DNA of 64,000 bases, taken from the NCBI GenBank assembly GCA_000505065.1, contig AWSN01000001.1:487772-551771 (forward strand). The letters are read 5' to 3'. The stretch comes from Parcubacteria bacterium RAAC4_OD1_1 (GTDB lineage Bacteria > Patescibacteriota > Minisyncoccia > Phycocordibacterales > UBA9973). A program made the position numbers and the translations under genes. This document shows positions 11,754 to 45,767 of this stretch, piece after piece (the first letter of the stretch is position 1; each line of letters starts with the position of its first letter). A model generated the notes under the pieces. That model did no database searches and was not told where the DNA came from. It worked only from the letters and a program-made list of their open reading frames with translations.

Positions 11754-12509
11754 CCAGATAGTGGTTTAACCACTATCTGGAAGATTTTCATCTTCTAGTA
11801 AGGAAACTTTTCCTCTTTCTTTTCTAATAATTTCTACAATTTCCTCTGAATGTTGTTTAAAATCTGAAATACCCTTAAAAACTTCAAGAATTCTTAAACC
11901 CTCTTCTTTCGAAACAATATTAAAATCATTATTTTCATATTCATTGTCACTAGCAAGAATAAGATCTTTTAAATCTTCTGGGATATCATGAACTTGATAA
12001 TTTTTATTTACATATCCAATAATTTTATTAAAATAATTTTCATTACCCATCAATTGAGACTTAAAAGTTCCCTGAAAAAGCGATCCGGAGCGAGAATTTT
12101 TTACATTAAAATAGTAAGTATAAGCTCCTTGTAATTTCTGCATAAATTTAGCTATTCCTCCATCTACATTTTGTTTCAAAACAAAATGAAAATGATTTGG
12201 ATTTAAACAATAAGCAACAACTAAAACTAATGGTTTATCCCCAGATAGTGGTTTAACCACTATCTGGGATTTTTTTGTCTTTCTTAAGTTTGACAAACTC
12301 ACTATTTTTTCTATTTTATTAAATTCTTTTATACTTTCAATAAATCTAAATAAATCACTCTTATCAGAAAAAATGTTTCTCTTGTCAACCCCCCTATTGT
12401 AAATATGGTAATATTCTCCATTTAATAAAGGTTGTTTTCTTAACATGTTCTTATTATATCATATAATCAAATCTACAGATAGTGGTTTAACCACTATCTG
12501 TAGATTTGA
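11754..12509 (-). mobile_element. RAYT paralog 1 unit bounded by P1 palindromes (ccagatagtggtttaaccactatctgg)
   Basis: P1 copies lie at 11754-11780 and 12241-12267 (internal), and an extended 43-nt perfect palindrome lies at 12467-12509. Confidence 0.6.
11766..12446 (-). CDS. IS200-like HuH tyrosine transposase, REP-associated (RAYT-like), paralog 1
   Basis: YHIYNRGV near the N-terminus and a HuH motif in CLNPNHFHFVL, then AYTYYF. The gene is flanked by palindrome P1 copies, one copy is internal, and P1 supplies the stop codon. Confidence 0.7.
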   Translation of the reverse strand: MLRKQPLLNGEYYHIYNRGVDKRNIFSDKSDLFRFIESIKEFNKIEKIVSLSNLRKTKKSQIVVKPLSGDKPLVLVVAYCLNPNHFHFVLKQNVDGGIAKFMQKLQGAYTYYFNVKNSRSGSLFQGTFKSQLMGNENYFNKIIGYVNKNYQVHDIPEDLKDLILASDNEYENNDFNIVSKEEGLRILEVFKGISDFKQHSEEIVEIIRKERGKVSLLEDENLPDSG

Positions 12510-12660
12510 TTAAGTATTGCATAAATTAGATTCTTATAGTAACATTCTATATGTAACAGTCCGTTTTCAAACCGGGCTTTTATTTTTCTTAAATGTCGAA
12601 TTTAAGAATAACAATTTAATAACAATTTAATAAAAAGGTCTCTTGTTTTTATTGTATTTT

Positions 12661-12696: not shown

Positions 12697-13914
12697 ATGT
12701 TAGACCTAAAAACAATGAAGTCAGCACTGGAACAGCTTGAGCAAGAAAGAAAAATCCCTCGTGATAAAATCATAGATGCCATAGAACAAGCCTTAGCTGC
12801 TGCTTATAAAAAAGATTATGGTAAAAAAGGTCAAATAATCCGTGCCAAAATTGACATAGAAAATGGAGATATGGAATTCTACCAAGTCAAAATAGTAGTA
12901 GATGAATCTTTAGTCCGCATTCCTAAATTAGACGAAGAAGGAAATGAGGAAGAAGACGAAGAAATTGCAGAAGATGATGAAAGAGTTCGATATAATGAAG
13001 AACATCACATACTAATAGAAGATGCTAAAAAGATAAAAAACAACATAGTTTTAGAAGAAGAAATTATATTCCCATTAGAAAATAAAGACGATTTCGGAAG
13101 AATAGCAGCTCAGACAGCCAAGCAAGTTATAATTCAAAAAATTCGTGAAGCTGAAAGAGGGGCTATAATCGAAGAATATGGAAGTCGTGAAGGTGAAATC
13201 ATAAATGGTACAGTATCTAAAATAGAAAGAGGCGTCCTTTATATAGATTTCAATCGTGCGACAGGTATCATCCTCCCAGAAGAACAAATTCCAGGAGAAT
13301 TTTACAAGAGAGGAGATAGGATAAAAGCTTATTTATACTCTATAGAAGAAACCCCAAGAGGAGTAAATTTAAAACTTTCTCGTACTCACCCTGAATTTAT
13401 AGAAGGATTATTTGCAATGGAAGCTCCAGAAATATCAGGAGGAGTAGTAGAAATTAAATCCATAGCCAGAGAGCCGGGCTCACGTTCAAAAATATCTGTT
13501 TATTCCAATGATGAGCACATTGACCCAGTGGGATCTTGTGTCGGACAAAAAGGAGTCAGAGTTTCAACTGTTATGAGTGAGCTAGGTGGAGAAAAAATAG
13601 ACATAATACCTTGGTCACCTGATCCAGCTACATACATAAGTAGTGCTCTTTCTCCTGCTAATGTCTTAAATATTGAAACAGACGAAGAAGGACACAAAGC
13701 TACAATAGAAGTCGCCAATGATCAGCTTTCACTTGCTATTGGTAAAGGGGGGCAAAATGTCCGCCTTGCTGCAAAACTTACTGGATGGAGAATCGATATA
13801 AAAAGCATAGATAAGAACAATGAAACAGTTGGTGAAAACACAGAAGATGATAATATAGAAGAAGCTAGTGAAAACATCGATGACGGTATCATTGATGATG
13901 GCACAGAAGCATAA
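12697..13914 (+). CDS. nusA: Transcription termination/antitermination factor NusA
   Basis: The N-terminal domain is followed by S1 and KH domains (GQKGVRV, GKGGQNVRLAA) and an acidic tail. Confidence 0.9.
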   Translation: MLDLKTMKSALEQLEQERKIPRDKIIDAIEQALAAAYKKDYGKKGQIIRAKIDIENGDMEFYQVKIVVDESLVRIPKLDEEGNEEEDEEIAEDDERVRYNEEHHILIEDAKKIKNNIVLEEEIIFPLENKDDFGRIAAQTAKQVIIQKIREAERGAIIEEYGSREGEIINGTVSKIERGVLYIDFNRATGIILPEEQIPGEFYKRGDRIKAYLYSIEETPRGVNLKLSRTHPEFIEGLFAMEAPEISGGVVEIKSIAREPGSRSKISVYSNDEHIDPVGSCVGQKGVRVSTVMSELGGEKIDIIPWSPDPATYISSALSPANVLNIETDEEGHKATIEVANDQLSLAIGKGGQNVRLAAKLTGWRIDIKSIDKNNETVGENTEDDNIEEASENIDDGIIDDGTEA

Positions 13915-23466: not shown

Positions 23467-23883
23467 TCACAATATTATATTTTCTACTACTTTTACTCTA
23501 CCTAGTTTTTTATGTATATCAATATAAACAACCAAAAGGTCAAATTGCCATTCCCTATTCCCTACTCTATTACTTATGAGATAAGTTTCTACTATTCTTC
23601 GAAGTCTTTGCATTTTCCAAATATGCATATTTTCTTCTGGTCTACCTGTTTCAAACCCCCACTGTCCAGGCCTTGCCTGGACAGTGGGGGTAAATGAGAA
23701 TTGTTTTGATTTTACTTCAACAAAATATATCTTATTATCTTTTATTGCAATTATATCTATTTCTCCCCACTTTCTAGTGTAATTTCTTTCTAAAACAAAA
23801 AATCCGTGTTTCATAAGAAACCTACAGGCTAAATCTTCCCCAATTTTACCTATTTTTTGTGAATTTGAAGTAAAACTTTTCAT
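23467..23883 (-). CDS. yraN: YraN (UPF0102) family endonuclease carrying an in-frame P2 palindrome insertion
   Basis: GEIDIIA and VEVKSK motifs; the peptide PTVQARPGQWG is encoded by the 35-nt palindrome at 23656-23690. Confidence 0.7.
   Translation of the reverse strand: MKSFTSNSQKIGKIGEDLACRFLMKHGFFVLERNYTRKWGEIDIIAIKDNKIYFVEVKSKQFSFTPTVQARPGQWGFETGRPEENMHIWKMQRLRRIVETYLISNRVGNREWQFDLLVVYIDIHKKLGRVKVVENIIL
23656..23690. repeat. P2 palindrome copy (cccccactgtccaggccttgcctggacagtggggg), inside yraN
   Basis: A perfect 16-bp stem with a 3-nt loop. It is GC-rich within AT-rich DNA and open in all six frames. Confidence 0.9.
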
Positions 23884-28571: not shown

Positions 28572-29570
28572 TCACGACTTACTATGATATTTCTTATGTA
28601 TATCTTTTAATTGACGATCTGTAATATGTGTATATATCTGAGTTGTAGCAATATTCGCATGGCCAAGCATCATTTGGACCGAGCGAATATCAGCCCCATT
28701 AGAAAGTAAATCTGTTGCAAAAGAGTGACGAATCACGTGGGGGGTCACCTTCTTAGAAATTCCTGCAATAATTGCATATTGGCGAACAATCCTTTCTATA
28801 GAGCGGGGGGTAATTCTTCCTCCGTTACTGTCCAGGCCTTGCCTGGACTTATTATTTTTGGAATACTGAATAAATAATGGCTCATCCATATCTTTTCTAT
28901 TTTTCAAATATTCTCTTATTGCATCCTTGGCGCTATCTGAAAGGAAAACGACACGAACTTTTTCACCCTTTCCACGGATAGAGAATTCATCTTTTGATAA
29001 ATCCAAGTCCCTATTGAGTGAGCAAAGTTCAGAAAGACGAAGCCCTGTCGAGAAAAAAAGCTCCAATATCGCTTTGTCTCGTAAAGATTTCAAATTCCCA
29101 TAGGTCGGACCTAGGGTCTTATTATTTTTACTTTTTGCCCCTAGGTCCGACCTAGGGGAATTTTCCAAAGGTGCTTTTAAAAGCCTATTTAATTCATCAA
29201 CAGAAATAAGATCCAAAGACCTTTCTTTTATCTTTGCAAGCTCTATCCGATCAGGTGGAAGGGAAGTGATACCTCTTTTCATAAGATATTTAAGGAAAGA
29301 ACGAAGAGCAATAAGATGATAATTCTGAGTATTCTTCTTAAGAGTTGCTGATTGTTGCCCACGAACCTTAACCCCAGGCTGACGATTAAGAAAAAGACGG
29401 AATTCACGAATCTTGTCATCATCAATATCTTTTGGATCTGTTATTTTGGAAAAATCAAAAAACCTACTTATATAATGATCATAATTATTGACCGTTTTTA
29501 GACTATTTCCTTTCTCTATTTCTACATGCTCAAGAAATTCTCTTTTCAATTGCTCTAAATAAGATGCCAT
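28572..29570 (-). CDS. xerC: Tyrosine recombinase XerC/XerD-like, carrying two in-frame palindrome insertions
   Basis: HVIRHSFAT...LGHANIATTQIYTH in the catalytic region. P2 encodes SRQGLDSNGG, and a P3 pair encodes PRSDLGAKSKNNKTLGPTYG. Confidence 0.8.
   Translation of the reverse strand: MASYLEQLKREFLEHVEIEKGNSLKTVNNYDHYISRFFDFSKITDPKDIDDDKIREFRLFLNRQPGVKVRGQQSATLKKNTQNYHLIALRSFLKYLMKRGITSLPPDRIELAKIKERSLDLISVDELNRLLKAPLENSPRSDLGAKSKNNKTLGPTYGNLKSLRDKAILELFFSTGLRLSELCSLNRDLDLSKDEFSIRGKGEKVRVVFLSDSAKDAIREYLKNRKDMDEPLFIQYSKNNKSRQGLDSNGGRITPRSIERIVRQYAIIAGISKKVTPHVIRHSFATDLLSNGADIRSVQMMLGHANIATTQIYTHITDRQLKDIHKKYHSKS
28826..28849. repeat. P2 palindrome copy inside xerC
   Basis: The sequence is actgtccaggccttgcctggact. 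Confidence 0.85.
29098..29157. repeat. Pair of P3 palindromes (cctaggtcSgacctagg) separated by 19 nt, in frame inside xerC
   Basis: ccataggtcggacctaggg ... cccctaggtccgacctagggg. The core gacctaggtc recurs in the rpsO terminator at 30071-30100. Confidence 0.8.
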
Positions 29571-30926: not shown

Positions 30927-30960
30927 CCCCACTGTCCAGGCCTTGCCTGGACAGTGGGGG
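30927..30960. repeat. P2 palindrome copy, 5' UTR of pnp (12 nt before ATG)
   Basis: The sequence is ccccactgtccaggccttgcctggacagtggggg. Confidence 0.9.
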
Positions 30961-42109: not shown

Positions 42110-44071
42110 ATGGATTATTTAGATTCCCTAAACGAAAAACAAAAAGAGGCGGTCCTTTATACAAATGGGCCTCTTTTAATTGTAGCAGGAGCCGGAGCAG
42201 GTAAAACAAAGACGATAACTCACAGAATCATTCATCTTATACACAAAGGGATAGATCCAGAAACTATTCTTGCTATTACTTTTACAAATAAGGCTGCCAA
42301 AGAAATGAAAGAAAGGGTAATGAATATGCTTGAAAAAAAAGAGCACGGGGATATTGTGGGGGATAATTTGGCACGCCCCGGATTTCGTCGGGGCGTGCCT
42401 TTCATTTCTACTTTTCACTCACTTGGAGTCTATATAATAAAAGAGAATGCTCACCTGATAGGCCTTACAAAACATTTCTCAATTATAGATGAAAGTGATG
42501 CTCTTTCTATTATAAAAAACATAATGAAAGAACGTGATATTGACCCAAAACAGCACGAGCCAAGAAAAATAAAAGGAATTATCTCTAGATCAAAAGGAGA
42601 TTTTATAGATGTAGAAGAATTTTCTAAAAATGTTGGTAACGCTATCCAAAGTATAGTAGCAATAATTTGGCGTGATTATGAGAGAGAACTAAAAAAGCAA
42701 AAAGCTTTAGACTTTGATGATCTCCTTATAGAATCTGTAAAAATTTTAAAAAACAACAAAAACATAAAAGAAAAATATCAAAACAAGTGGCGGTATCTTC
42801 ATATTGATGAATACCAAGACACAAACGAAGTTCAATACGAAATGGTTAAACTTTTAGTTGATAAAGAGAACAATCTTTGTGTAGTGGGGGACACAGATCA
42901 AAACATTTATTCTTGGCGTGGAGCAAATATAAAGAACATGCTTCATTTTGAGAAAGATTTTCCAGATGCAAAAATTGTTATGCTTGAGCAGAATTATCGC
43001 TCAACGAAAAACATAATAGAAGCCGCAAATAATGTTATTAAAAAAAATGAATACCGAGTTCCTAAAAATTTATTTACAGAAAACAAAGAAGGTGAATCTA
43101 TAAGCATCTGCGAAACATATGATGAGCTTACAGAAGCAAATCATATAGCTGAAACAATAGATATATTACTTAGAGAAGAAGAAGCCGAAAATATTGCAGT
43201 ACTTTATCGTGCAAACTTCCAATCAAGAGTTTTAGAAGAAGCAATGCTCGCAAAGCAAATTCCTTACCAGGTTTTAGGGGTAAAATTTTTTGAAAGAAAA
43301 GAAATAAAAGATTTGCTTTCATATATAAAAGCAAGTTTAAATAAAGAAAGTTTGATTGATATAAAAAGGATTATAAATGTCCCAACTCGCGGTATAGGCA
43401 AAACAACAATCACTAAACTTTTCGCAAATCAATTTACAGAAATTCCAAAAGCTACCCAAGAAAAAATAAATAATTTTTACAATCTCTTAGATAATATAAA
43501 TGAATTTATATCTACTCATAAAGTATCAGAATCCATCAAATATATAATAGAAAAAACAGGACTCGAAGAAAAATATAAACACGGATCCACAGATGAACAA
43601 GAAGATCTTGAAAATATGAAAGAGCTTGTATCTCTCGCCCTAAAATATGATGAATTAGAAGATGGAATTGAAAAGCTTCTAGAAGACGCATCACTTTCAA
43701 GCGATCAAGACACCCTAATATATGAGGAGGACAAGAAAGGGAACAAAAAGGGTGTAAGACTTATGACCGTCCATGCTTCAAAAGGACTGGAATTTAAGTA
43801 TGTCTTCATAACTGGCCTCGAACAAGATCTTTTTCCTCATATAAAAGATGGTAAAAAATCTAAAGAAGACAACGAAGAAGAAAGAAGACTTTTTTATGTT
43901 GCTATTACAAGAGCAAAACATAAGCTTTATTTATCTTATGCGACCCTTCGAACTATCTTTGGAATGAAACAAGTAAATTCTCCAAGTGAATTTATATATG
44001 ATATCCCCGAACATTTAACATCTTTTGAACAAAAATATTCCCAATCTGGCAATAGAGTAGTATATCTATAA
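42110..44071 (+). CDS. UvrD/PcrA-family ATP-dependent DNA helicase with in-frame GC-rich palindrome
   Basis: Walker A GAGAGKT, TFTNKAAKEM, and DEYQDTN motifs. The palindrome at 42370-42399 encodes ARPGFRRGVP, just before TFHSLG. Confidence 0.85.
   Translation: MDYLDSLNEKQKEAVLYTNGPLLIVAGAGAGKTKTITHRIIHLIHKGIDPETILAITFTNKAAKEMKERVMNMLEKKEHGDIVGDNLARPGFRRGVPFISTFHSLGVYIIKENAHLIGLTKHFSIIDESDALSIIKNIMKERDIDPKQHEPRKIKGIISRSKGDFIDVEEFSKNVGNAIQSIVAIIWRDYERELKKQKALDFDDLLIESVKILKNNKNIKEKYQNKWRYLHIDEYQDTNEVQYEMVKLLVDKENNLCVVGDTDQNIYSWRGANIKNMLHFEKDFPDAKIVMLEQNYRSTKNIIEAANNVIKKNEYRVPKNLFTENKEGESISICETYDELTEANHIAETIDILLREEEAENIAVLYRANFQSRVLEEAMLAKQIPYQVLGVKFFERKEIKDLLSYIKASLNKESLIDIKRIINVPTRGIGKTTITKLFANQFTEIPKATQEKINNFYNLLDNINEFISTHKVSESIKYIIEKTGLEEKYKHGSTDEQEDLENMKELVSLALKYDELEDGIEKLLEDASLSSDQDTLIYEEDKKGNKKGVRLMTVHASKGLEFKYVFITGLEQDLFPHIKDGKKSKEDNEEERRLFYVAITRAKHKLYLSYATLRTIFGMKQVNSPSEFIYDIPEHLTSFEQKYSQSGNRVVYL
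42370..42399. repeat. P4 GC-rich hairpin (ggcacgccccg-gatttcgtc-ggggcgtgcc) in frame inside uvrD
   Basis: A 10-bp perfect stem, the only such GC-rich patch in the gene. Confidence 0.7.
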
Positions 44072-44088: not shown

Positions 44089-44859
44089 ACTGTCCAGGCC
44101 TTGCCTGGACAATATTTAATATATATAATAGATAATATGTCTATTAGACCTATCAAATTCGCACCAAATGAAAATTACCACATATACAATCGTGGTGTAA
44201 ATAAAATGAATATTTTTATAGATCATAATGATTATGATCGTTTTATGAAATTAATGTATGTATCAAATTCTACTACCAATAAAAAATTTACCGACATAGA
44301 AACAAGTCCAGGCAAGGCCTGGACACTAGAAAAAGATAGTGATTTGGTAGATATTGTTAGTTATTGTCTTATGCCTAATCATTTTCATTTTATTCTTAGA
44401 GAAAAAATTGAAAATGGCATAAGTATATTTATGCACAGACTCTCTACTTCTTACTCTATGTATTTTAATAAAAAATACGATCGTAATGGAGCACTTTTCC
44501 AAGGAAAATTTAAGTCAGAACATATAAATAATGACAATTATTTTAAATATCTATTTTCATATATTCACTTAAATCCAATAAAACTTATACAAAAAGACTG
44601 GAAAGAAATTGGAATAAAAAATATTGATGTAGCACAAAAATATCTTTTAAAATATCCCTATTCTAGTTTTTTGGATATAATAGAAAAAATTAACAGAATA
44701 GAGTCAAAAATAATAAATAAACTAAGTATTCCTAATTATTTTGGTTCTCCTGAAAATTTTAAAAAGGAAATTTTTGATTGGTTGATAGTTAAAATATGAA
44801 TATTAATAAAAATAAATTTAATAGTGTTAGGAATACTGTCCAGGCAAGGCCTGGACAGT
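44089..44859 (+). mobile_element. RAYT paralog 2 unit bounded by P2 palindromes
   Basis: P2 copies lie at 44089-44111, 44306-44324 (internal, encoding SPGKAWT) and 44835-44859. Confidence 0.55.
44136..44799 (+). CDS. IS200-like HuH tyrosine transposase, REP-associated (RAYT-like), paralog 2 (ORF track starts at TTG 44101)
   Basis: YHIYNRGV near the N-terminus, HuH in CLMPNHFHFIL, then YIHLNPIK and YPYSSF. P2 copies lie upstream, internally and downstream. Confidence 0.7.
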
Positions 44860-45767
44860 GGAAATATAAAGCCAAAAAGCATCTGGGGCAAAACTTTTTA
44901 AAATCTAAAGAAGCAATTAAAACTATATGTGATGCTGGAAAAGTAGAAAAAGAAGATATTATCTTGGAAATTGGCCCCGGGAAAGGGGTTCTCACTGAGG
45001 AGTTGCTAAAAAGAGGGGCAAAAATTCTAGCAATTGAAAAAGACAATGATTTAATTAATTTTTTAATAGAAAAATTTGAATCTTTTCTTCCGTCCACACC
45101 GGGTATGGACATAGATACAAAAAGGTTAAATATAATAAATGAAGATATTTTGGATTTTGATATTTCAAAATATGGACTTTTAGATAAAAAATACAAAATA
45201 ATTGCAAATATTCCATATAATATAACAGGGGCAATAATAAAGAAATTCTTAAGTGAGATCAAAAATAAGCCTATTTTAATGGCTATTTTGGTGCAAAAAG
45301 AGGTTGCGGAAAGAATTGTTGCAAAAAACAGAAAAATAAATAAGCAAAAAACAGAAGCTGTCCAGGCCTTGCCTGGACAGTCCAGGCCTTGCCTGGACAG
45401 TGGGGGGAAGGAGAGTATATTGTCATTGAGTGTGAAAGCTTATGGAGATCCTAAATATATAATGAAAGTATCAAAAAAATATTTCTCACCAGCCCCAAAA
45501 GTGGACTCCGCGATAATACTTATAGATAATATTTCCGATAAAAATTTTAAAAACAATGATGAGGAAAAAACCTTTTTTGATCTAGTTCATGCTGGATTTA
45601 GTCATAAAAGAAAATTATTTATAAAAAACATAGAAAATTTAGATTACCAAAAAGAAAAAATTAAAAAAATGTTTGAAATATTAGAAATTGATAAAAAAAT
45701 AAGAGCAGAAGATATACCTTTTTATAAATGGATAGAAATGAAAGATTTTTTAACTACAAAAAACTAG
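44796..45767 (+). CDS. rsmA: 16S rRNA (adenine1518/1519-N6)-dimethyltransferase RsmA/KsgA carrying three in-frame P2 palindromes
   Basis: LGQNFL and EIGPGKGVLT motifs. The start ATG overlaps the RAYT stop (ATGA). One P2 copy sits in the N-terminal extension (TVQARPGQW), and a tandem pair sits mid-gene (AVQALPGQSRPCLDSGG). Confidence 0.8.
   Translation: MNINKNKFNSVRNTVQARPGQWKYKAKKHLGQNFLKSKEAIKTICDAGKVEKEDIILEIGPGKGVLTEELLKRGAKILAIEKDNDLINFLIEKFESFLPSTPGMDIDTKRLNIINEDILDFDISKYGLLDKKYKIIANIPYNITGAIIKKFLSEIKNKPILMAILVQKEVAERIVAKNRKINKQKTEAVQALPGQSRPCLDSGGKESILSLSVKAYGDPKYIMKVSKKYFSPAPKVDSAIILIDNISDKNFKNNDEEKTFFDLVHAGFSHKRKLFIKNIENLDYQKEKIKKMFEILEIDKKIRAEDIPFYKWIEMKDFLTTKN
45358..45407. repeat. 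Tandem double P2 palindrome inside rsmA
   Basis: ctgtccaggccttgcctggacag is followed immediately by tccaggccttgcctggacagtgggggg. Confidence 0.9.

What the first reader, a model, noticed from the sequence alone, without database searches (positions are those of the whole stretch)
45358..45407. Tandem double palindrome inside the catalytic region of rsmA/ksgA
Two P2 copies lie head to tail inside the gene (ctgtccaggccttgcctggacag then tccaggccttgcctggacagtgggggg). They add about 17-25 residues between the conserved VAERIVA block and the YG.LSV block of the dimethyltransferase. A third copy sits in the N-terminal extension, which overlaps the RAYT stop through an ATGA overlap. An essential rRNA methyltransferase tolerating three insertions is notable.
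Basis: partly seen in the sequence, partly recalled or inferred. Interest (0 to 1): 0.55.

Follow-up and report, generated by a model that had tools for sequence, protein, structure and literature searches.

The report
Palindromic repeat pair inside rsmA
A small mobile-type DNA palindrome, present twice in tandem, sits in frame inside a substrate-recognition loop of an intact ribosomal RNA methyltransferase gene in a tiny-genome (CPR) bacterium, next to the transposase-like gene it is associated with; this kind of event is known from Rickettsia and some other bacteria.

Summary
At 45360-45401 a 20-nt unit is repeated 2.1 times at 100% identity. It belongs to a palindrome family, GTCCAGGC-NNN-GCCTGGAC, with 8 copies in the window against 0 expected.

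The pair is part of a 75-nt in-frame insertion of 25 residues in rsmA/ksgA. A 75%-identical orthologue lacks this insertion.

The gene looks functional:
- The ORF is intact.
- It scores 200 bits on TIGR00755 (cut-off 171).
- dN/dS is about 0.14.
- The AlphaFold core has pLDDT above 90, with the inserts modelled as disordered.
- The DNA is identical in three other assemblies.

The insert lies in KsgA "loop12", which contacts h45 and h27. It is a recognition loop, not a neutral surface loop.

The elements are REP-like repeats tied to the adjacent Y1 (RAYT-like) transposase gene. The N-terminal copy is that gene's 3'-flanking repeat.

In related lineages the same positions carry lineage-specific palindromes: the RAYT flanks, an in-frame site inside RAYT, the rsmA N-terminus and loop12.

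In-frame REP/RPE insertions are already known from Rickettsia and Opitutus. This is therefore a new member of a known kind. The co-variation across positions is the unusual part.

The parts
45358..45380 (.). P2 palindrome, copy A (CTGTCCAGGC-CTT-GCCTGGACAG). It encodes A188-Q195 (AVQALPGQ) of RsmA.
45381..45407 (.). P2 palindrome, copy B (TCCAGGCCTTGCCTGGACAG) plus the G-run of the long outer arm (TGGGGGG). It encodes S196-G204 (SRPCLDSGG). Together with copy A it makes a 20-nt tandem at 100% identity.
   Evidence: As a single strand the pair folds into one 43-nt hairpin: -34.6 kcal/mol as RNA (z -4.5) and -19.2 as DNA.
45330..45357 (+). A-rich spacer at the 5' side of the insert, encoding RKINKQKTE. 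It contains a 13-nt direct repeat, GCAAAAAACAGAA, at 45321-45333 and 45344-45356.
45330..45404 (+). The whole 75-nt (25-codon) in-frame insertion relative to orthologues. It lies in KsgA loop12, directly before the conserved G-K-E.
   Evidence: AF2 pLDDT is below 50 over much of 181-202.
44796..45767 (+). rsmA/ksgA (323 aa), intact.
44835..44859 (.). P2 copy (AAG loop) in the N-terminal extension of rsmA (TVQARPGQW). It is also the 3'-flanking REP of the RAYT gene.
45090..45111 (.). Decayed palindrome of the older P1/P4 type (CCGTCCACACCGGGTATGGACA), encoding LPSTPGMD. An intact P1 copy sits at the same site in L001, and the site is empty in L002.
44137..44799 (+). RAYT-like Y1 (HUH) transposase gene (220 aa). 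It has the HUH motif (NHFHF) and the Tyr motif (SYIHLNP).
44306..44324 (.). Perfect P2 core in frame inside RAYT (SPGKAWT). The site is conserved (S-P-x-x-x-W) and shows no length change among orthologues.
44090..44111 (.). P2 copy 26 nt upstream of the RAYT ATG (the 5'-flanking REP). Its 3' arm supplies a -35-like TTGCCT hexamer.
23655..23691 (.). Full-length 37-nt P2 palindrome in frame in a YraN-family gene (TPTVQARPGQWGF).
28830..28848 (.). P2 core in frame in a XerC/D-like recombinase gene (KSRQGLD). It forms an insertion relative to solved Xer structures.
30927..30959 (.). 33-nt P2 palindrome, intergenic, 12 nt upstream of the pnp ORF.

Best explanation
The double palindrome is a tandem dimer of a REP-like repetitive palindrome. 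The family ('P2') has the core GTCCAGGC-NNN-GCCTGGAC and a full form of 37 nt. It belongs to the REP system of the adjacent RAYT-like Y1/HUH transposase gene.

The dimer lies within a 75-nt in-frame insertion in rsmA. The insertion is translated into a 25-residue, probably disordered, Lys-rich extension of KsgA loop12. The enzyme otherwise stays intact and is most likely active.

Shown:
- The repeats, their non-random copy number and their reading frame.
- The empty site in an orthologue.
- The intact fold and conserved residues.
- The REP-RAYT-REP arrangement.
- Five of the eight copies cluster within 1.3 kb of RAYT.
- Other lineages carry their own palindrome type at the same positions.

Inferred:
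- The RAYT protein, acting on single-stranded hairpins as IS200/IS605-type enzymes do, places or replaces copies preferentially close to its own gene.
- Only insertions whose net length is a multiple of three, in permissive loops, survive selection.
- The tandem arose either by a second insertion at the foot of the first copy or by hairpin-promoted slippage (2-nt GT microhomology).
- The 20-nt duplication and the 23-nt A-rich duplication helped to restore the reading frame.
For: - Copy number: 8 copies against 0 expected. With the relaxed core there are 13 against 0.56 expected.
- Tandem repeat: period 20, 100% identity.
- Empty site: the orthologue L002 (75% identical protein, no RAYT) reads AGA AAC|GGA AAA GGG.
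- Same site, other types: L001 has a 21-nt P1 palindrome, L122 a 24-nt P3, and L124 and L125 have P2. All net lengths are multiples of 3.
- Homologue census: 18 of the 120 best rsmA homologues carry 5-25 extra residues at this loop. About half have N-terminal extensions, many with palindrome-type peptides.
- RAYT identity: Pfam Y1_Tnp scores 35.9 bits against a gathering score of 23. The best NCBIfam hit is REP_Tyr_transpos. P2 copies flank the gene, 26 nt upstream of its ATG and 36 nt downstream of its stop.
- Synteny: helicase-RAYT-rsmA is found in 7 lineages.
- Integrity of rsmA: TIGR00755 200.4 bits against 171. All 69 invariant columns of an 80-sequence alignment are kept. dN/dS is 0.137 against the empty-site orthologue, and the window has the shortest dN branch of the three.
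- Structure: the AF2 model has pTM 0.81 with the core above 90. Confidence below 50 is confined to patches within residues 7-27 and 181-202. Foldseek top hits are KsgA structures.
- The DNA is identical in three further assemblies.
- The same family sits in frame in loops of YraN and Xer.
Against: - No direct evidence of transcription, translation or methyltransferase activity.
- Loop12 contacts h45 and h27 and helps hold G1516. A 25-residue insertion there could impair binding, and this was not modelled against a 30S subunit.
- RAYT activity on these palindromes is untested.
- The RAYT is below the NCBIfam equivalog cut-off (44.2 against 80) and has no sequence-detectable solved relative.
- Copies differ in arm length (19-37 nt), so the mobile unit is undefined.
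- The A-rich 28 nt of the insert is not explained by a REP insertion alone.
- Only 64 kb of a ~0.69-Mb genome was seen.
Confidence: 0.8

Rival explanations
1. The insert has been exapted. The lengthened, positively charged loop12 (and the extended N-terminus next to loop1) has been selected because it changes how this KsgA grips h45, h27 and h24 of the unusual CPR small subunit.
For: Loop1 and loop12 are the length-variable specificity loops of KsgA/Erm enzymes, and loop12 residue K169 contacts h45 and A901. The two rsmA sites hit repeatedly are exactly the N-terminus and loop12. The spacer adds 5 Lys/Arg.
Against: The inserted peptides differ completely between lineages and follow each lineage's DNA palindrome rather than any protein motif. 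100 of 116 scorable entries in the homologue census (120 homologues plus the window copy) have the short 7-residue loop. The insert is modelled without structure. The same elements sit in unrelated proteins.
Confidence: 0.12
2. The hairpin acts at the RNA or DNA level. It could be a strong structure inside the rsmA message that pauses ribosomes, serves as a processing or stability site, or blocks antisense transcription. On this view the coded peptide is a by-product.
For: The pair folds into one 43-nt hairpin of -34.6 kcal/mol, z -4.5. On the minus strand, copy A is followed by a T-rich tail and scores as terminator-like. In other CPR genomes the same core is flanked by A and T runs like a bidirectional terminator. 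REPs are known to affect mRNA stability (PMC3733652).
Against: There is no T-run on the sense strand. All observed inserts keep the frame in three different phases, which shows selection on translation rather than on a particular RNA context. No Rfam family matches. This reading does not exclude the main explanation.
Confidence: 0.12
3. rsmA is inactivated. It is a young pseudogene whose frame happens to be open.
For: A 25-residue insertion lies in an rRNA-contact loop. ksgA loss is tolerated in model bacteria (my own knowledge). The 32+20+23-nt composition of the insert suggests that out-of-frame intermediates may have existed.
Against: The ORF is open over 323 codons. All family-invariant residues are kept. 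The model score is above the equivalog cut-off. dN/dS is 0.14, with the shortest non-synonymous branch of three orthologues.
Confidence: 0.06
4. The pattern is a chance palindrome or an assembly or sequencing artefact.
For: Hairpins can cause local misassembly.
Against: 0 copies are expected against 8 found. The sequence is identical in four assemblies from different runs. Related elements occupy the same site in other lineages.
Confidence: 0.01
5. The palindromes are removed from the mRNA as hairpin mini-introns, so the protein has the normal loop.
For: CPR bacteria are known for insertions in rRNA genes that are removed after transcription (my own knowledge). The strong hairpin could be a recognition structure.
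Against: Every insert seen has a net length that is a multiple of three and no stop codon, in different phases. That would be unnecessary if the inserts were excised. No precedent is known to me.
Confidence: 0.02

Closest known systems
REP / REPIN - RAYT systems (repetitive extragenic palindromes with REP-associated tyrosine transposases; Nunvar 2010 PMC2817692; Bertels & Rainey 2011 PMC3116915; Bertels 2017 PMC5581495)
   Same: Both have short GC-rich palindromes in many copies. Both have a Y1/HUH transposase gene flanked on each side by the repeat. In both, the transposase gene keeps a stable syntenic position across diverged lineages. A doublet can fold into one longer hairpin, as in REPINs. 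Each lineage has its own repeat type.
   Different: Most copies here are intragenic (6 of 8 in the window). There is no GTAG tag. The palindrome is nearly perfect with a 1-3-nt loop. The RAYT carries an in-frame copy of the repeat inside its own coding sequence. The host is a CPR bacterium with 32.5% GC. The RAYT scores below the NCBIfam equivalog cut-off.
Rickettsia palindromic elements (RPE) and intragenic GTAG/CGTC REPs of Opitutus terrae, Thauera and Rickettsia conorii (Di Nocera 2013, PMC3733652, and its refs 13, 14)
   Same: Palindromic repeats are inserted in frame in conserved protein genes and are apparently tolerated. Dimers coding 20-30 residues occur, and so does more than one insert per gene. 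Many inserts sit at N-termini. Hosts include nucleic-acid enzymes. P1 starts with CGTC and P2 with TGTC, a variant that paper lists.
   Different: That paper reports that CGTC repeats are not associated with transposase genes, whereas here they flank a Y1 transposase gene. Stem and loop geometry differ from the defined CGTC-1 to CGTC-4 families. RPE-1 units are much longer. No sequence relationship was shown.
KsgA/Erm loop1 and loop12 specificity loops (Bhujbalrao & Anand chimeras 6IFW/6IFX; bioRxiv 10.1101/2021.09.15.460497)
   Same: The two rsmA positions that take up palindromes (the N-terminal region and the loop between QKEVAERxxA and xSLS) are the loops that vary in length between family members and tune rRNA recognition.
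   Different: Here the length change comes from a repetitive DNA element, is lineage-specific and has no shown functional consequence.

Membership tests
REP/REPIN-RAYT system | Short (about 20-40 nt) palindromic repeat present in many more copies than chance allows | tested here: met
   8 exact-core copies in 64 kb against 0 in 100 shuffles. The full palindrome is 37 nt. The genome-wide number is not available.
REP/REPIN-RAYT system | Y1/HUH tyrosine transposase gene (RAYT) flanked by the repeat | tested here: met
   Pfam Y1_Tnp scores 35.9 bits against a gathering score of 23. HUH and Y motifs are present. P2 copies lie 26 nt upstream of the ATG and 36 nt downstream of the stop. The same layout is seen in 6 other lineages.
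REP/REPIN-RAYT system | RAYT protein family membership (NCBIfam NF047646 equivalog) | tested here: not met
   It is the best and only hit, but scores 44.2 bits against a cut-off of 80. This points to a distant relative.
REP/REPIN-RAYT system | Conserved GTAG tetranucleotide at one end of the repeat | tested here: not met
   P2 begins (C)TGTCC and P1 begins CCGTCC. No GTAG is present.
REP/REPIN-RAYT system | Extragenic location | tested here: not met
   6 of 8 copies lie in ORFs with family assignments: YraN, Xer, RAYT and rsmA (three copies).
REP/REPIN-RAYT system | RAYT single-copy and vertically inherited | tested here: inconclusive
   Conserved helicase-RAYT-rsmA synteny across lineages with 52-79% RsmA identity fits vertical descent. 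Copy number per genome could not be counted.
REP/REPIN-RAYT system | RAYT binds and cleaves its REP | not testable with these tools
   Needs biochemistry.
In-frame palindromic insertions of the RPE / intragenic REP kind | Repeat inserted in frame in a conserved protein gene, with orthologues lacking it | tested here: met
   75-nt insert against the empty site in L002. YraN and Xer inserts were checked against homologues and solved structures.
In-frame palindromic insertions of the RPE / intragenic REP kind | Insert falls in a loop and leaves the fold intact | tested here: met
   The AF2 core is above 90. Confidence drops below 50 in parts of the inserts, which lie between helices 168-175 and 208-214. 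This is a prediction only.
In-frame palindromic insertions of the RPE / intragenic REP kind | Host protein is expressed with the insert | not testable with these tools
   No transcript or peptide data are available.
CGTC-tagged REPs (Di Nocera 2013) | CGTC (or TGTC/CCTC) tag at one end | tested here: met
   P1 is C-CGTC-CAAACC and P2 is C-TGTC-CAGGC. The definition is from PMC3733652.
CGTC-tagged REPs (Di Nocera 2013) | 8-9-bp stem starting with two A-T pairs, 4-5-nt loop, CCA-like tail | tested here: not met
   Here the tag is itself paired, the stem is GC-rich, the loop is 1-3 nt and there is no CCA tail.
RsmA/KsgA 16S rRNA dimethyltransferase | Score above the equivalog cut-off, SAM motif, NIPY motif and KsgA fold | tested here: met
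   TIGR00755 scores 200.4 against 171. EIGPGKG and NIPYNIT are present. Foldseek to 3TQS and 6IFS gives E about 6e-22.

The most novel reading that the evidence does not exclude
In this Nomurabacteria clade the REP copies at fixed positions are overwritten in concert whenever the lineage's palindrome type changes. The positions are both RAYT flanks, an in-frame site inside the RAYT gene, the rsmA N-terminus and KsgA loop12. The change looks like an exchange of the central 9 nt between conserved GTCCA/TGGAC arms, which points to RAYT-catalysed in-situ replacement rather than fresh insertions. On this reading, a transposase gene carries a coding copy of its own substrate. The element system also keeps rewriting the two specificity loops of a universal ribosome-biogenesis enzyme.
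Probability: 0.35. Interest if true: 0.7.

Novelty: new member of a known kind. Interest (0 to 1): 0.5.

Why it matters
This appears to extend in-frame palindromic-repeat insertion, best known from Rickettsia, to CPR/Patescibacteria, although the two library searches I ran were not exhaustive. These genomes have almost no intergenic space, so most copies must land in genes. In this clade, loop-length variation in housekeeping proteins (KsgA, YraN, Xer and the RAYT itself) traces to such repeats and their decay products.

Two points could be worked on experimentally:
- A natural 25-residue insertion in KsgA loop12 is a ready-made test of how much that rRNA-recognition loop tolerates.
- The palindromes flank a Y1 transposase gene and also recur in frame inside it, and they co-vary across lineages. 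This may give a handle on how RAYT-type enzymes and their repeats co-evolve. CGTC-type repeats were reported to lack any associated transposase (PMC3733652).

Tried and rejected
- **Genome scan for the P2 core.** It only showed that the exact core with a CTT/AAG loop also occurs in several low-GC CPR MAGs. No distribution statistics can be drawn from it.
- **Metagenome scan with the RAYT alignment.** It returned 80 loci, but only 5 belonged to the subclade with the internal palindrome site and only 3 had rsmA downstream. The co-variation analysis therefore rests on 7 lineages.
- **Solved relatives of the RAYT.** phmmer against the PDB found no real relative.
- **Known RNA families.** Rfam gave nothing at the palindromes.
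- **Model geometry.** Model coordinates are not exposed, so I could not measure the distance of the insert from the SAM site or dock the model on a 30S subunit. The loop12 assignment rests on sequence alignment to B. subtilis KsgA and the published description. The equivalence K205 ~ K169 is good only to within one residue.
- **Literature on CPR.** Searches for REP or palindromic insertions in CPR/Patescibacteria found nothing relevant.
- **Rejected explanations.** I considered and rejected a chance palindrome, an assembly artefact, a pseudogene, an excised mini-intron and a sense-strand terminator.
Full report
**1. The observation**

The window has 32.5% GC. Its rsmA product is identical to a protein annotated in a Candidatus Nomurabacteria genome with a 693,530-bp contig.

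At 45358-45380 the sequence reads CTGTCCAGGCCTTGCCTGGACAG, followed directly by TCCAGGCCTTGCCTGGACAG and TGGGGGG up to 45407. Tandem Repeats Finder reports period 20, 2.1 copies and 100% matches at 45360-45401.

The core GTCCAGGCNNNGCCTGGAC occurs eight times in the window and never in 100 shuffles. The full form of the element is a perfect 37-nt palindrome, ACCCCCACTGTCCAGGC-CTT-GCCTGGACAGTGGGGGT, at 23655-23691.

The same DNA is found, without a single mismatch, in three other assemblies from other sequencing runs. The double copy is therefore not an assembly artefact.

**2. The host gene**

ORF 44796-45767 (323 aa) is RsmA/KsgA:
- Pfam RrnaAD scores 3.8e-46.
- TIGR00755 scores 200.4 bits against a cut-off of 171.
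- An AlphaFold model has pTM 0.81 with the core above pLDDT 90.
- Its best structural matches are solved KsgA proteins.

Among the 120 closest homologues the usual length is about 267 residues. The consensus around the site is QKEVAERIVARD-GKESILSLS. The window has 25 extra residues there, R179-G203, encoded by 45330-45404.

The 75%-identical orthologue on L002 has the uninterrupted site AGA AAC|GGA AAA GGG.

The 75 nt consist of three parts:
- a 28-nt A-rich stretch coding RKINKQKTE, which contains a 13-nt direct repeat of the left flank (45321-45333 and 45344-45356);
- the 43-nt palindrome pair;
- four G's.

None of 32, 20 or 23 nt is a multiple of three, but their sum is. This suggests that only the in-frame end product was kept by selection (inference).

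The gene shows no sign of decay:
- All 69 invariant columns of an 80-sequence alignment are retained.
- dN/dS against the empty-site orthologue is 0.137.
- The window has the shortest non-synonymous branch of the three close orthologues.

In the model, confidence falls below 50 only in patches within residues 7-27 (the N-terminal extension) and 181-202 (this insert). It is about 73 around residues 100-110, a third insert.

**3. Where in the enzyme**

The alignment to B. subtilis KsgA places the insert between the helix QKEVAERMAA (ending at residue 164) and G172-S-L-S. This is inside the stretch D165-Y171. That stretch is 'loop12'.

In the 30S-KsgA cryo-EM study, loop12 holds h45 and h27. Its K169 can bond to h45 and A901. 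Together with the C-terminal domain it forms the cleft that takes G1516. It is described as one of the length-variable specificity loops, together with the N-terminal loop1 (10.1101/2021.09.15.460497).

The invariant K205 of the window protein (G-K-E) lines up with K169 to within one residue. It sits directly after the insert. The insert is therefore not in a catalytic motif, but it is in a functional rRNA-contact loop. Whether the extra 25 residues disturb binding could not be tested here.

**4. What the elements are**

Immediately upstream of rsmA lies a 220-aa gene for a Y1/HUH transposase:
- Pfam Y1_Tnp scores above its gathering score.
- The best NCBIfam hit is REP-associated tyrosine transposase, though below its cut-off.
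- It has the motifs NHFHF, LFQGKFKS and SYIHLNP.

P2 copies lie 26 nt upstream of its ATG (44090-44111) and 36 nt downstream of its stop (44835-44859). This is the classical REP-RAYT-REP layout (PMC2817692, PMC5581495).

The downstream copy is the 'third copy' of the finding. In the window the consensus start (M-x-H-K-A-K-K) has been replaced by the outer arm of the palindrome (CAG TGG). No in-frame ATG, GTG or TTG remains before GQNF. Translation must therefore start at the ATG at 44796, which overlaps the RAYT stop.

Five of the eight copies lie within 1.3 kb of the RAYT gene. The other copies are:
- in frame in a YraN-family gene (TPTVQARPGQWGF);
- in frame in a XerC/D-like gene (KSRQGLD, an insertion relative to solved Xer proteins);
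- in the spacer before pnp.

The palindrome has no stop codon in any of its six frames. Three different phases are in use.

As a single strand, the tandem pair does not fold into two hairpins. It folds into one 43-nt hairpin with two 3-nt internal loops, at -34.6 kcal/mol as RNA with z -4.5. A REP doublet (REPIN) folds in the same way.

**5. Related lineages**

The order helicase-RAYT-rsmA recurs in L001, L122, L125, L129/L130 and L134. L002 and L124 have no RAYT there. Each lineage has its own palindrome:

| Lineage | Type | Sequence |
|---|---|---|
| L001 | P1 | CCGTCCAAACC-S-GGTTTGGACGG |
| window | P2 | GTCCAGGC-NNN-GCCTGGAC |
| L122 | P3 | AATCCTCACACC-S-GGTGTGGGAATT |
| L125 | P4 | TGTCCAAACCGGGTATGGACA |
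| L129 | P4' | GTCCATACC-S-GGTATGGAC |

In every lineage the type is found on both sides of the RAYT gene. It is also found in frame inside the RAYT gene, at a conserved S-P-x-x-x-W site that shows no length change among these orthologues.

The internal 21-mer matches the lineage's own flanks as follows:

| Lineage | Matches to upstream / downstream flank (of 21) |
|---|---|
| window | 20 / 20 |
| L122 | 21 / 20 |
| L125 | 20 / 20 |
| L129 | 20 / 21 |
| L177 | 18 / 15 |
| L134 | 16 / 16 |
| L001 | 15 / 15 |

The background mode is 10, and cross-lineage values are 10-15 for the distinct types.

rsmA loop12 carries the lineage's own type in the window, L001, L122 and L129/L130. It carries P2 in L125 and L124, and it is empty in L134 and L002.

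Within single proteins, the N-terminal peptide and the loop12 peptide are of the same type in P0010, P0050, P0067 and P0073, but not in P0018.

The window's third insert (45090-45111, LPSTPGMD) is a decayed copy of the P1/P4 type. It sits at a site where L001 has an intact P1. The P1/P4 type is therefore older in this lineage and P2 is younger.

P1, P2 and P4 share the arms GTCCA/TGGAC and differ in the central nine bases. The internal RAYT site differs between L125 and the window in exactly that block (TACCCGGTT against GGCAAGGCC).

Two readings fit:
- repeated independent insertion into a few permissive, RAYT-proximal sites;
- in-situ replacement of old copies by the current type.

The unchanged length at the RAYT internal site, together with the shared 'RIC' context of several loop12 inserts, favours replacement. 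This is inference from seven lineages.

**6. Comparison with what is known**

In-frame palindromic repeats in conserved genes are established in two settings. One is the Rickettsia RPEs. The other is intragenic GTAG and CGTC REPs in Opitutus terrae, Thauera and R. conorii. These include dimers coding 20-30 residues, several inserts per gene, and many inserts at N-termini (PMC3733652). The finding is therefore a new member of a known kind.

Three things differ:
- The host is a CPR bacterium. Two library searches for REP or palindromic insertions in CPR/Patescibacteria found nothing relevant.
- Most copies are intragenic.
- The palindromes start with CGTC or TGTC yet flank a Y1 transposase gene, whereas CGTC repeats were reported as not associated with transposase genes.

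They do not meet the stem, loop and tail definition of the published CGTC families, and they lack the GTAG of classical REPs. The RAYT carrying a coding copy of its own repeat, co-varying with the flanks, is something I did not find described. I did not search for it exhaustively.

**7. Verdict**

The most likely mechanism has three steps:
- a RAYT-associated palindrome was placed near its transposase gene;
- it was duplicated in tandem;
- it was retained because the net insertion is in frame and sits in a length-tolerant loop.

Function of the modified enzyme is likely but unproven.

Noticed in passing
rsmA homologues P0019-P0021, P0027, P0046, P0069, P0081, P0085, P0090, P0094, P0115: These have N-terminal extensions of the form M.HKAKKS(L/M)G-LNKFS.ENLSP.FS.-HKAKK. 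The native N-terminus is duplicated on both sides of a ~15-residue insert, and in some proteins this occurs twice. This looks like a different small element with a target duplication.
   Followed up: no
L099:38, L106:2826/4167/4381, L114:2347: The exact P2 core with a CTT/AAG loop occurs in other low-GC CPR MAGs. It is often flanked by an A-run and a T-run, like a bidirectional intrinsic terminator.
   Followed up: partly
window 44101-44129: A promoter-like site (TTGCCT, 17 nt, TATAAT; 10 of 12 matches) lies just before the RAYT ATG. Its -35 hexamer is inside the 3' arm of the upstream palindrome.
   Followed up: no
window 43847-43944: Rfam RF03531 (a C. difficile sRNA located inside a helicase gene) matches at 63.6 bits, just under its gathering score of 65.2, inside the UvrD/PcrA ORF. 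This probably reflects conserved helicase coding sequence.
   Followed up: no
window 12464-12512: A perfect 49-nt palindrome (24-nt arms, 1 nt between) lies in the spacer between divergent ORFs 11766-12446(-) and 12697-13914(+). It looks like an operator.
   Followed up: partly
window 29138-29158: A second, unrelated GC-rich palindrome, CCCCTAGGT-CCG-ACCTAGGGG, sits in frame in the Xer-like gene and encodes SPRSDLGA.
   Followed up: no
YraN homologues P0130, P0131, P0163; window 23655-23691: The YraN loop that carries P2 in the window varies in length across Paceibacteria. It carries P2-type peptides in other lineages (SHVQALPGHDF, PAVQALPGQRV) and a decayed one (PSFQARSEQV). This suggests that such repeats seed loop variation.
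   Followed up: partly
L001:1377-1401, 2090-2110, 2414-2440, 2649-2673; L002:1291-1300: All four P1 copies in L001 are followed by GGAAA(A)G or GAAAAA, whatever the loop orientation. The empty rsmA site reads AAC|GGAAAAG. This may be a target preference.
   Followed up: no
L129:872-920 (and L130): The rsmA N-terminal extension carries two P4' copies with opposite loop bases, 11 nt apart (QVHTRYGH-ATV-VHTGYGH). This is a REPIN-like inverted doublet that is translated.
   Followed up: partly
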